Below the pieces are notes generated by a model. The model saw only the letters and a list, made by a program, of their open reading frames with translations, searched no databases and was not told where the DNA came from. Shown here piece by piece: positions 15,226-39,129 of a stretch of DNA of 64,000 nucleotides. The number at the start of each line of letters is the position of its first letter. Position 1 is the stretch's first letter. The stretch lies in the NCBI RefSeq assembly GCF_046105845.1, contig NZ_CP151004.1. The stretch is one strand, 5' to 3'. This stretch comes from Escherichia coli. GTDB taxonomy: Bacteria > Pseudomonadota > Gammaproteobacteria > Enterobacterales > Enterobacteriaceae. The translations under genes were made by a program, and so were the position numbers.

Positions 15226-15241
15226 CCCCCAGAAACATCAA

Positions 15242-15270
15242 CGGCTCCTGAATCAGGAGCCGTCTTATTA
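15242..15270 (+). terminator. putative terminator between convergent ytfL and ytfK
   Basis: GGCTCCTGAatcAGGAGCC hairpin followed by GTCTTATTA. Confidence 0.55.
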
Positions 15271-30222: not shown

Positions 30223-30250
30223 AAAACGCCGACCACTGGTCGGCGTTTTT
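30223..30250. terminator. bidirectional rho-independent terminator between yjfZ and rplI
   Basis: AAAACGCCGACCactGGTCGGCGTTTTT: 10-bp GC-rich stem flanked by A-run and T-run. Confidence 0.85.
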
Positions 30251-35449: not shown

Positions 35450-36904
<1,455 letters not shown>

Positions 36905-37024
36905 TCACTCTAATTTTCAAAAGTAATCACAACAAGATTATTTATGATTAAATGTGACGCGACCCGCAAATAATTCCACATGGATAGAGTGGGATTCACA
37001 CAACGAAATAATTATTCATTTAAA

Positions 37025-37042
37025 TTCATTTAGTTAAATGAA
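37025..37042. promoter_or_regulatory. inverted repeat TTCATTTAgtTAAATGAA in ulaA-ulaG divergent control region; candidate UlaR (DeoR-type) operator
   Basis: Perfect 8-2-8 palindrome in the AT-rich intergenic region between the divergent ula transcription units. Confidence 0.5.
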
Positions 37043-37201
37043 TTACACATTCCATTAAATCTTTCCACACTCAAAATCAACAACAACTTCCCTGGCAAAA
37101 AGTCAAAAAATGGTCATTGCCTTCCTGAAAAAATAGTGTCAGGATTAATCAAAACCAATCACATGTTGATTCGAATTGAACTATCATGAAGGTAAATGGC
37201 G

Positions 37202-38266
37202 ATGAGTAAAGTGAAAAGTATCACCCGAGAATCCTGGATCCTGAGCACTTTCCCGGAGTGGGGTAGCTGGCTGAATGAAGAAATTGAACAAGAGCAGGTC
37301 GCCCCTGGCACATTTGCGATGTGGTGGCTAGGCTGCACCGGGATCTGGCTGAAATCAGAAGGTGGCACCAACGTTTGCGTTGATTTCTGGTGCGGCACTG
37401 GCAAACAAAGTCACGGTAACCCGTTAATGAAACAGGGTCACCAGATGCAGCGCATGGCTGGCGTGAAAAAACTGCAGCCAAACCTGCGCACCACCCCGTT
37501 TGTTCTTGATCCGTTTGCGATTCGCCAGATCGACGCGGTACTGGCGACTCACGATCACAACGATCATATCGACGTTAACGTCGCTGCTGCCGTGATGCAG
37601 AACTGTGCTGATGACGTACCGTTCATTGGACCGAAAACCTGCGTTGATTTGTGGATTGGCTGGGGCGTACCGAAAGAGCGTTGCATCGTGGTCAAACCGG
37701 GCGATGTTGTAAAAGTGAAAGACATTGAAATTCATGCGCTTGACGCTTTCGACCGTACTGCACTGATCACCCTACCTGCCGATCAAAAAGCGGCTGGCGT
37801 ACTGCCAGATGGCATGGACGATCGCGCAGTAAACTACCTGTTCAAAACCCCTGGCGGTTCCCTGTATCACAGTGGCGATTCCCACTACTCTAACTATTAT
37901 GCGAAGCACGGTAACGAACATCAGATCGACGTGGCTTTAGGTTCATACGGCGAAAACCCGCGCGGTATTACCGACAAAATGACCAGCGCCGATATGCTGC
38001 GTATGGGTGAAGCCCTGAATGCGAAAGTGGTTATCCCGTTCCACCACGACATCTGGTCAAACTTCCAGGCCGATCCGCAAGAAATCCGCGTGCTGTGGGA
38101 GATGAAAAAAGATCGTCTGAAGTATGGCTTCAAGCCGTTTATCTGGCAGGTGGGCGGCAAATTTACCTGGCCGTTGGATAAAGACAACTTCGAATACCAC
38201 TATCCGCGTGGTTTCGATGATTGCTTCACTATTGAACCGGATCTGCCGTTCAAGTCATTCCTGTAA
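37202..38266 (+). CDS. ulaG: L-ascorbate-6-phosphate lactonase (metallo-beta-lactamase fold)
   Basis: Start trimmed to [24 protein letters not shown]… (354 aa); HDHNDH metal-binding motif. Confidence 0.92.
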
Positions 38267-38278
38267 TCTGTCGTTTAT

Positions 38279-38312
38279 ACCGGATAGCGTGGAGTAGTTC
38301 GCGCTATCCGGC
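38279..38312 (+). terminator. stem-loop downstream of ulaG (putative terminator or REP-like hairpin)
   Basis: CCGGATAGCG…CGCTATCCGG 10-bp inverted repeat; no clear T-run. Confidence 0.4.
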
Positions 38313-38373
38313 GTAGTATTTCCTGGCTATTTCAAATATCATCTAAAAAAATCAAATTTTATCGGAATAGCTC

Positions 38374-39129
38374 ATGACTGAAGCACAAAGACATCAAATC
38401 CTCCTGGAAATGCTCGCACAATTGGGCTTTGTGACCGTTGAGAAAGTCGTTGAGCGTCTGGGAATTTCGCCTGCCACTGCGCGACGCGATATCAATAAAC
38501 TTGACGAAAGCGGCAAACTGAAAAAAGTGCGCAATGGCGCAGAAGCTATTACCCAGCAGCGCCCACGCTGGACGCCGATGAATCTGCATCAGGCGCAGAA
38601 TCACGATGAAAAAGTACGTATTGCTAAAGCGGCCTCGCAGCTGGTTAATCCGGGCGAAAGCGTAGTCATCAACTGCGGCTCCACCGCGTTTCTGCTTGGG
38701 CGGGAAATGTGTGGCAAGCCAGTGCAAATCATCACTAATTATCTACCGCTGGCAAATTACCTGATCGATCAGGAGCATGACAGCGTGATCATTATGGGCG
38801 GACAGTACAACAAAAGTCAGTCCATCACTTTAAGCCCGCAAGGCAGCGAAAACAGTCTCTATGCCGGGCACTGGATGTTTACCAGCGGCAAAGGGCTGAC
38901 AGCAGAAGGGTTGTATAAAACCGATATGCTGACGGCAATGGCAGAGCAGAAGATGCTAAGCGTGGTAGGGAAACTGGTGGTACTGGTTGATAGCAGTAAG
39001 ATCGGCGAACGCGCGGGAATGCTTTTTAGCCGTGCCGATCAAATCGATATGCTGATCACCGGCAAAAATGCTAACCCGGAAATCCTGCAACAACTGGAAG
39101 CGCAAGGGGTCAGCATTCTGCGTGTTTAA
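38374..39129 (+). CDS. ulaR: DeoR-family transcriptional repressor of the ula regulon
   Basis: 251-aa ORF with N-terminal HTH (…[27 protein letters not shown]…). Confidence 0.92.

What the first reader, a model, noticed from the sequence alone, without database searches (positions are those of the whole stretch)
37025..37042. Palindrome in the ulaG / ulaABCDEF divergent control region
TTCATTTAgtTAAATGAA (perfect 8-2-8) lies in the AT-rich region between the divergent ula promoters and is a candidate UlaR (DeoR-type) or CRP/IHF-associated operator.
Basis: partly seen in the sequence, partly recalled or inferred. Interest (0 to 1): 0.25.

Follow-up and report, generated by a model that had tools for sequence, protein, structure and literature searches.

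The report
Chance palindrome over the ula IHF site
The palindrome is real, but its symmetry comes from a single base change seen only in this strain; what evolution keeps there is an IHF-type DNA-bending site between the two ascorbate-operon promoters, part of an already described repression loop, so the finding is ordinary.

Summary
The palindrome exists and is longer than reported. It is a perfect 10-2-10, AATTCATTTAgtTAAATGAATT, at 37023-37044, in the AT-richest part and near the middle of the 354-bp ulaA/ulaG intergenic region.

Its perfection is private to this sequence. Base 37038 is A here and T in the closest genome. None of 5,426 complete E. coli genomes carries the exact 40-mer; K-12 pairs at 9 of 10 positions.

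Across 79 other species only the left arm plus GT-TA is conserved. That profile, AAWTCAW..A.WTA, falls in the register of the IHF consensus WATCAANNNNTTR. The rest of the right arm is as free as neutral spacer, and no symmetry survives outside Escherichia.

The UlaR-type boxes (TCA-N5-AATCA-N5-WGATT-N5-TGA) lie about 100 bp to the left and about 130 bp to the right, in the two promoter blocks. A CRP-like site sits by the ulaA promoter.

Distances between the central core and the two boxes change only in steps of about 10 bp, as a phased loop requires.

Best reading: this is the IHF bending site of the known UlaR/IHF repression loop (Campos 2004), and the palindromy is incidental. It is not a UlaR or CRP operator. 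I could not retrieve the published IHF site coordinates.

The parts
37023..37044 (.). Perfect 10-2-10 palindrome AATTCATTTA gt TAAATGAATT. It contains the reported 8-2-8 at 37025-37042.
   Evidence: (I5)
37038..37038 (.). Private base (A here, T in other E. coli) that makes the palindrome perfect.
37014..37023 (+). Third, direct copy ATTCATTTAA, in tandem with the left arm.
   Evidence: (I4)
37024..37036 (+). IHF-type 13-bp core ATTCATTTAGTTA, with 2 mismatches to WATCAANNNNTTR. The aligned site is a perfect consensus in 8 species and has one mismatch in 22. The majority consensus of 76 sequences is AATCAATAAATTA.
37009..37022 (+). Moderately conserved A/T tract 5' of the core (aaattaa..catta), in the position where strong IHF sites carry a dA+dT element.
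   Evidence: the rule for IHF sites is from established knowledge
36917..36947 (.). Composite dyad TCA-N5-AATCA-N5-AGATT-N5-TGA over the inferred ulaA -35/spacer. Inferred to be the UlaR operator pair of the ulaA promoter.
   Evidence: 82% identity across genera
37149..37179 (.). Composite dyad TCA-N5-AATCA-N5-TGATT-N5-TGA just downstream of the inferred ulaG -10. Inferred to be the UlaR operator pair of the ulaG promoter.
36953..36968 (.). CRP-like site TGTGAcgcgacCCGCA (2 mismatches) in the conserved ulaA block.
37117..37145 (+). Inferred ulaG promoter: -35 TTGCCT (37117-37122), 17-bp spacer, extended -10 TGtCAGGAT (37137-37145). Read from conserved columns only; no transcription start data.
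   Evidence: inference
36908..36935 (-). Inferred ulaA promoter on the minus strand: -35 TTGTTG (36935-36930), -10 TAGAGT (36913-36908). Read from conserved columns only.
   Evidence: inference
35450..36847 (-). ulaA coding sequence (PTS ascorbate IIC).
37202..38266 (+). ulaG coding sequence (L-ascorbate-6-phosphate lactonase).
38374..39129 (+). ulaR coding sequence (DeoR-type repressor).

Best explanation
The left arm of the palindrome, its 2-nt centre and the first two bases of the right arm (37024-37036) form the 13-bp core of an IHF binding site. An A/T tract lies on its 5' side. IHF bound there would bend the DNA sharply between two UlaR operator sets, centred near 36932 at the ulaA promoter and near 37164 at the ulaG promoter, about 232 bp apart. 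A UlaR tetramer could then bridge the two sets and repress both divergent promoters at once. L-ascorbate-6-phosphate dissociates the tetramer and opens the loop. The dyad symmetry plays no part: the rest of the right arm drifts freely, and the perfect palindrome arose from one private T-to-A change at 37038. What is shown here is the sequence, the conservation pattern and the spacing rules. What is taken from the literature is that IHF and UlaR co-repress through a loop with four operators. What is inferred is that this particular site is the IHF site, and that the AATCA-N5-WGATT dyads are the UlaR operators.
For: (1) Alignment of the intergenic region from 79 other species shows only three conserved islands: the two promoter blocks and a central core at 37023-37036. 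(2) The central profile is W at 37024 (75/75 non-gap), T at 37026 (61/75 non-gap), C at 37027 (68/76), A at 37028 (74/76), T at 37035 (75/76) and R at 37036 (75/76). This is exactly the register of WATCAANNNNTTR, and the majority consensus AATCAATAAATTA matches it perfectly. A review notes that CA and TT are the core elements of IHF sites (PMC10380432). (3) The aligned 13-mer is a perfect consensus in 8 species and has one mismatch in 22. In those species it is usually the single best match in their intergenic region. (4) Mean identity to the window outside Escherichia is 0.69 for the left arm and 0.66 for gt+TA. It is 0.36 for the remaining right arm, the same as neutral spacer at 0.33-0.36. 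(5) Within Escherichia, CATTTAAATTCAT and GTTAA are invariant and the three bases between them nearly so (90% or more), while the right arm varies in K-12, O111, B2 strains and E. albertii. (6) Core-to-operator distances take values of 98/107-108/118 on the ulaA side and 133-136/144-145 on the ulaG side in 78 of 80 sequences (outliers 126 and 139). A 10-bp loss on one side is compensated by a 10-bp gain on the other in 3 species, keeping the total at 242. This is the behaviour expected of a helically phased loop with a fixed bend. (7) Literature: UlaR binds as a tetramer to four operators, and L-ascorbate-6-P converts it to dimers (PMC3219644). IHF and UlaR are co-repressors (bioRxiv 10.1101/2020.09.08.288738). 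A delta-ihf mutant derepresses ulaADEFG (PMC8546960).
Against: The E. coli core itself has 2 mismatches of 9 specified positions (ATTCAT instead of WATCAA). Ten equally good or better matches exist in the same 354 bp, including a 1-mismatch match at 37159-37171. On the E. coli sequence alone the assignment would therefore not be significant. The primary paper that mapped the IHF site (Campos et al. 2004, PMC355983) is not held, so I could not compare coordinates. No genome-wide IHF binding table I could open lists the ula genes. The core is about 26 bp off the geometric midpoint between the operator sets. In many genera the core contains AATCA, which is also the inferred UlaR half-site.
Confidence: 0.7

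Rival explanations
1. The palindrome is a fifth, central UlaR contact that anchors a higher-order UlaR complex.
For: UlaR is a DeoR-type oligomer that binds several operators. In many genera the central core contains AATCA, identical to the half-site inferred in the promoter blocks.
Against: The partner WGATT at N5 is absent. The conserved downstream bases are TTR, which no promoter box has. In Escherichia the half-site reads AATTCA, not AATCA. AATCA-N5-WGATT occurs only in the two promoter blocks. The literature counts four operators, two per promoter (Campos 2004 abstract, from memory). The right arm is unconstrained.
Confidence: 0.07
2. The conserved central core binds another protein that prefers AT-rich DNA (H-NS, Fis, Lrp or an unknown factor), not IHF.
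For: This is the AT-richest 60-90 bp of the region, at 23% GC. The E. coli core departs from the IHF consensus at two positions.
Against: The conserved positions reproduce the degenerate W and R of the IHF consensus as well as its TCA and TT. IHF is the factor with a documented role at this locus. I made no PWM scan for the other proteins.
Confidence: 0.12
3. Nothing functional is there: a chance palindrome in AT-rich spacer DNA, possibly formed by slippage of the ATTCATTTA 10-mer.
For: The perfect form is private to this sequence. There is no symmetry outside Escherichia: 3.65 of 10 pairs at the same centre, and the best nearby value is 5.7 against a control of 5.1. Three copies of one 9-mer lie in 30 bp.
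Against: The left arm and TTA are conserved across about 30 genera, while flanking spacer is at 33-36% identity. The position of the core relative to both operator sets is fixed in 10-bp quanta.
Confidence: 0.08
4. The palindrome acts as a cruciform or as an RNA hairpin.
For: Folded as single-stranded DNA it gives -5.8 kcal/mol, z = -3.96 against shuffles.
Against: The stem is almost pure A-T with a 2-4 nt loop and is weak. The site lies upstream of both inferred promoters, so neither mRNA should contain it (inference). The complementarity is lost in other E. coli lineages and other genera. There is no credible Rfam match.
Confidence: 0.02

Closest known systems
IHF-assisted UlaR repression loop of the E. 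coli ulaG / ulaABCDEF divergent promoters (Campos et al. 2004, J Bacteriol 186:1720; Garces et al. 2008, Biochemistry 47:11424)
   Same: Same locus and genes. Two operator sets, one per promoter, with an IHF-type core between them. A delta-ihf mutant derepresses ula genes. UlaR switches between tetramer and dimer.
   Different: Nothing differs in kind. I could not verify that the published IHF site has these coordinates. The window differs from K-12 by the private A at 37038, which completes the palindrome.
Canonical IHF sites such as lambda attP H' (A-tract followed by WATCAANNNNTTR in a footprint of about 35 bp)
   Same: An asymmetric 13-bp core with conserved TCA and TT, R at the last position, and an A/T-rich tract 9-15 bp upstream.
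   Different: The E. coli core reads ATTCAT instead of WATCAA. Binding was not measured here.
Other looped repression systems with an architectural bend between operators (for example the DeoR, GalR/HU and NagC loops)
   Same: Operators far apart on one face of the helix, with spacing preserved in whole helical turns.
   Different: The proteins differ. This comparison comes from general knowledge and was not tested here.

Membership tests
IHF binding site | 13-bp core matching WATCAANNNNTTR | tested here: inconclusive
   The window core ATTCATTTAGTTA has 2 mismatches, and 10 matches as good or better occur in the 354 bp. The orthologous position is a perfect consensus in 8 species and has 1 mismatch in 22. 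The majority consensus is a perfect match.
IHF binding site | A/T-rich element 5' of the core | tested here: met
   A-rich columns at 37009-37011 and 37014 are conserved at 0.5-1.3 bits, 10-15 bp upstream of the core.
IHF binding site | Asymmetric recognition (no dyad needed) | tested here: met
   Only one arm plus TTA is conserved. The remaining right arm is at 36% identity, equal to spacer. There is no symmetry outside Escherichia.
IHF binding site | Protection or bending by purified IHF | not testable with these tools
   This needs a footprint or EMSA. The paper with the mapped site is not held.
IHF binding site | Architectural position between interacting sites, with helical phase kept | tested here: met
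   Distances from the core to the operator sets cluster at 98/107-108/118 and 133-136/144-145 bp in 78 of 80 sequences. Compensating 10-bp changes occur in 3 species.
UlaR operator | Carries the sequence shared by the four operators | tested here: not met
   The shared box inferred here, AATCA-N5-WGATT within TCA-N5-...-N5-TGA, is found only at 36917-36947 and 37149-37179. The palindrome has AATTCA and no WGATT. The published box itself could not be read.
UlaR operator | Lies within one of the two promoters (two operators per promoter) | tested here: not met
   The palindrome centre is about 133 and 119 bp upstream of the inferred ulaA and ulaG starts, outside both conserved promoter blocks. 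The starts are inferred, not measured.
UlaR operator | Bound by purified UlaR | not testable with these tools
   SELEX places UlaR in this intergenic region, but only at probe resolution.
CRP site | TGTGA-N6-TCACA with conserved half-sites at a class I or class II distance | tested here: not met
   The overlapping match at 37032-37047 has 3 of 10 mismatches and its bases are not conserved. The conserved candidate is at 36953-36968, by the ulaA promoter.
Palindromic operator of a dimeric regulator | Both half-sites conserved, symmetry maintained | tested here: not met
   Symmetric pairs at the same centre: window 10/10, other Escherichia 8, 8, 8 and 6, and a mean of 3.65 of 10 in 75 other species. 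Variation in the right arm is shown.

The most novel reading that the evidence does not exclude
In Escherichia only, the near-palindrome (9 of 10 pairs in most strains) has been recruited as a site for a second, symmetric dimeric regulator that overlaps and competes with IHF. This would add a lineage-specific input to ascorbate-operon control, and the private A at 37038 would strengthen that site.
Probability: 0.03. Interest if true: 0.3.

Novelty: already known. Interest (0 to 1): 0.1.

Why it matters
It matters little beyond annotation. The ula control region is a textbook-level example of a repressor loop helped by IHF, and the palindrome adds nothing to that model. The useful outcome is negative. 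The eye-catching symmetry is a one-base accident in this strain and should not be scored as an operator.

A modest positive by-product is a comparative map of the region across about 80 species. It pins a conserved IHF-type core and two composite dyads. It also shows that spacer length changes only in steps of about 10 bp, which is independent evolutionary support for the looping model.

Tried and rejected
1. I tried to read Campos et al. 2004 by PubMed id, PMC id and DOI. It is not held.

2. I searched the library for UlaR operator or IHF site coordinates and for the sequence itself. No paper gives positions. The SELEX papers only place UlaR in the spacer and upstream of ulaR.

3. I looked for ula genes in supplements of genome-wide IHF studies. 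Nothing is held or listed.

4. By eye I first took TCAAAATCAACAACAAC (37071) and GATTCACACAACG (36993) for the inner UlaR operators. I rejected this because those stretches are not conserved across genera.

5. The generic sigma-70 scan gave one weak hit, no more than in shuffles. The promoters were read from conserved columns instead and remain inferences.

6. CRP reading of the palindrome: rejected.

7. Hairpin or cruciform reading: weak, and not conserved.

8. The Rfam scan gave only a spurious eukaryotic lncRNA hit far below threshold.

Full report
**Observation**

The 18-mer TTCATTTAgtTAAATGAA is at 37025-37042 as reported. The perfect inverted repeat is longer: AATTCATTTA gt TAAATGAATT, a 10-2-10 at 37023-37044 (pair I5). 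A third, direct copy, ATTCATTTAA, lies at 37014-37023 (pair I4). The 9-mer ATTCATTTA occurs three times within 30 bp and nowhere else in the 64 kb.

A perfect arm of 10 or more with a spacer of 4 or less arose in 0.54% of 5,000 Markov shuffles of the intergenic region. About 0.32 such hits are expected per 64-kb shuffle. The observation therefore holds and is not trivially expected.

**Context**

The flanking genes are ulaA (minus strand, start codon at 36845-36847), ulaG (plus strand, start at 37202) and ulaR (38374-39129). These are annotated in near-identical E. coli chromosomes.

The intergenic region is 36848-37201, 354 bp and 35% GC. The palindrome sits in its AT-richest stretch, 23% GC. 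Its centre is 186 bp from the ulaA start codon and 168 bp from the ulaG start codon.

**The perfect symmetry is private to this sequence**

- The closest genome, strain N3, differs from the window at two bases in 901. One of them is 37038, A here and T there.
- A 40-mer centred on the palindrome finds no full-length exact match in 5,426 complete E. coli genomes. The best is 97.5%, and the four records scored at 99% or more are short partial hits.
- K-12 MG1655 reads AATTCATTTAgtTAATTGAATT, which pairs at 9 of 10 positions.
- O111, B2-type strains and E. albertii carry further changes, all in the right arm. CATTTAAATTCAT and GTTAA are invariant in all ten Escherichia sequences aligned, and the three bases between them vary in one sequence each.

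**Comparative footprint**

A scan of one genome per species with UlaG returned 80 loci from about 30 enterobacterial genera. In 79 of them ulaA lies divergently, 351-440 bp away. Together with the window this gave an 80-sequence alignment. It shows three conserved islands and otherwise unconserved spacer.

- **Island A, 36903-36976.** It holds a composite dyad TCA-N5-AATCA-N5-AGATT-N5-TGA at 36917-36947. It also holds a CRP-like TGTGAcgcgacCCGCA at 36953-36968.
- **Island G, 37115-37180.** It holds TTGCCT, then 17 bp, then TGtCAGGAT. This is followed by the same composite dyad with TGATT, at 37149-37179.
- **Central island, 37023-37036**, described below.

AATCA-N5-WGATT occurs only at the two dyad places in the whole window, against 0.37 expected. 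The full 31-bp pattern matches without mismatch only there. I infer that these dyads are the two operator pairs described for UlaR. That description (four operators, tetramer binding) is given in PMC3219644; 'two per promoter' comes from my memory of the Campos 2004 abstract.

**The central island fits IHF, not a symmetric operator**

The column counts over 76 sequences (Escherichia reduced to the window) are given:

| Position | Conserved base | Sequences |
|---|---|---|
| 37024 | W | 75 of 75 (one gap) |
| 37026 | T | 61 of 75 (one gap) |
| 37027 | C | 68 of 76 |
| 37028 | A | 74 of 76 |
| 37035 | T | 75 of 76 |
| 37036 | R | 75 of 76 |

The majority consensus is AATCAATAAATTA. That is a perfect instance of the IHF consensus WATCAANNNNTTR, including its degenerate W and R. 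A review notes that CA and TT are the core of IHF sites and that flanking A/T elements set affinity (PMC10380432).

- A moderately conserved A-rich tract lies 10-15 bp upstream of the core, at 37009-37014.
- The aligned 13-mer is a perfect consensus in 8 species and has one mismatch in 22. In those species it is usually the single best match in the whole intergenic region.
- The window's own core, ATTCATTTAGTTA, has two mismatches, and there are ten equally good matches in the 354 bp. The case therefore rests on conservation, not on the E. coli sequence alone.

**Asymmetry of constraint**

Mean identity to the window outside Escherichia:

| Segment | Mean identity |
|---|---|
| Left arm | 0.69 |
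| gt + TA | 0.66 |
| Remaining right arm, 37037-37044 | 0.36 |
| Unconserved spacers | 0.33-0.36 |

Counting complementary pairs about the same centre gives 10 of 10 in the window. The other Escherichia species give 8, 8, 8 and 6. The mean over 75 other species is 3.65. The best symmetry found nearby in those species (5.7) is no better than at control positions (5.1). Dyad symmetry is therefore not selected.

**Spacing**

- The two inferred operator centres are 241-243 bp apart in 65 of 80 sequences. They are 231-232 bp apart in 8 sequences (Escherichia and three other species) and 251 bp apart in one.
- On the ulaA side, the distance from the central core to the operator set is 98, 107-108 or 118 bp.
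- On the ulaG side, the distance is 133-136 or 144-145 bp in 78 of 80 sequences; two outliers give 126 and 139.
- Three species combine 98 with 144 and so restore the 242 total.

Length changes in whole helical turns on each side of a fixed central element are what a phased protein-bridged loop with a directed bend requires.

**Mechanism**

IHF bound at about 37005-37040 would bend the DNA so that a UlaR tetramer can hold the ulaA and ulaG operator sets together. This would repress both promoters. L-ascorbate-6-phosphate converts UlaR to dimers and releases the loop.

- The roles of UlaR, IHF and CRP at this locus come from the literature as cited in papers I could read. One search includes derepression of ulaADEFG in a delta-ihf mutant.
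- The assignment of IHF to this exact site, and of the dyads to UlaR, is my inference.
- The promoter hexamers and transcription starts are read from conserved columns only.

**Comparison with what is known, and verdict**

This is the already described IHF-assisted UlaR loop. The palindrome is not a UlaR operator and not a CRP site. It overlaps the probable IHF core by accident of sequence, and it became perfect through one strain-specific base. I could not retrieve the primary paper to confirm the published IHF coordinates. This is the main residual uncertainty, and I put confidence in the IHF assignment at about 0.7. Novelty: already known. Interest: low.

Noticed in passing
window 36932-37164; loci L002-L081: Spacer lengths between the central core and the two operator dyads change mostly in steps of about 10 bp across about 80 species. 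The combinations seen are mainly 98/107-108/118 with 133-136/144-145, and three species show compensating changes that keep the total at 242 bp.
   Followed up: partly
L086 (E. coli E138, NZ_AP022351.1), breakpoint at about window 36986: An IS1X4 element replaces the ulaA side of the intergenic region, and homology to the window begins at query base 139. This separates the ulaG promoter and central core from the ulaA operators. About 200 of 5,426 E. coli genomes gave no match to the intergenic region at all.
   Followed up: no
L053 (CACSKA010000007.1): A contig labelled Chryseobacterium sp. 18061 carries an enterobacterial ula locus whose UlaG is 94% identical to the E. coli protein. This is probably contamination or mislabelling of that assembly.
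   Followed up: no
window 38280-38311: A 10-nt G+C-rich inverted repeat, CCGGATAGCG ... CGCTATCCGG, lies just after the ulaG stop codon. Several ATCA motifs lie at 38332-38354, upstream of ulaR, where SELEX reported a weak second UlaR peak.
   Followed up: no
window 30223-30249 and 15241-15263: These are the only other perfect inverted repeats in the window with arms of 10 or more: AAAACGCCGACCACTGGTCGGCGTTTT and ACGGCTCCTGAATCAGGAGCCGT. Both are G+C-rich, and the first looks like a bidirectional terminator.
   Followed up: no
window 36878-36886, 36973-36980, 37063-37070: The 8-mers ATTCCACA and TTCCACAC recur three times in the ula intergenic region (D5 and D6). They are only weakly conserved across genera, and no explanation was sought.
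   Followed up: no
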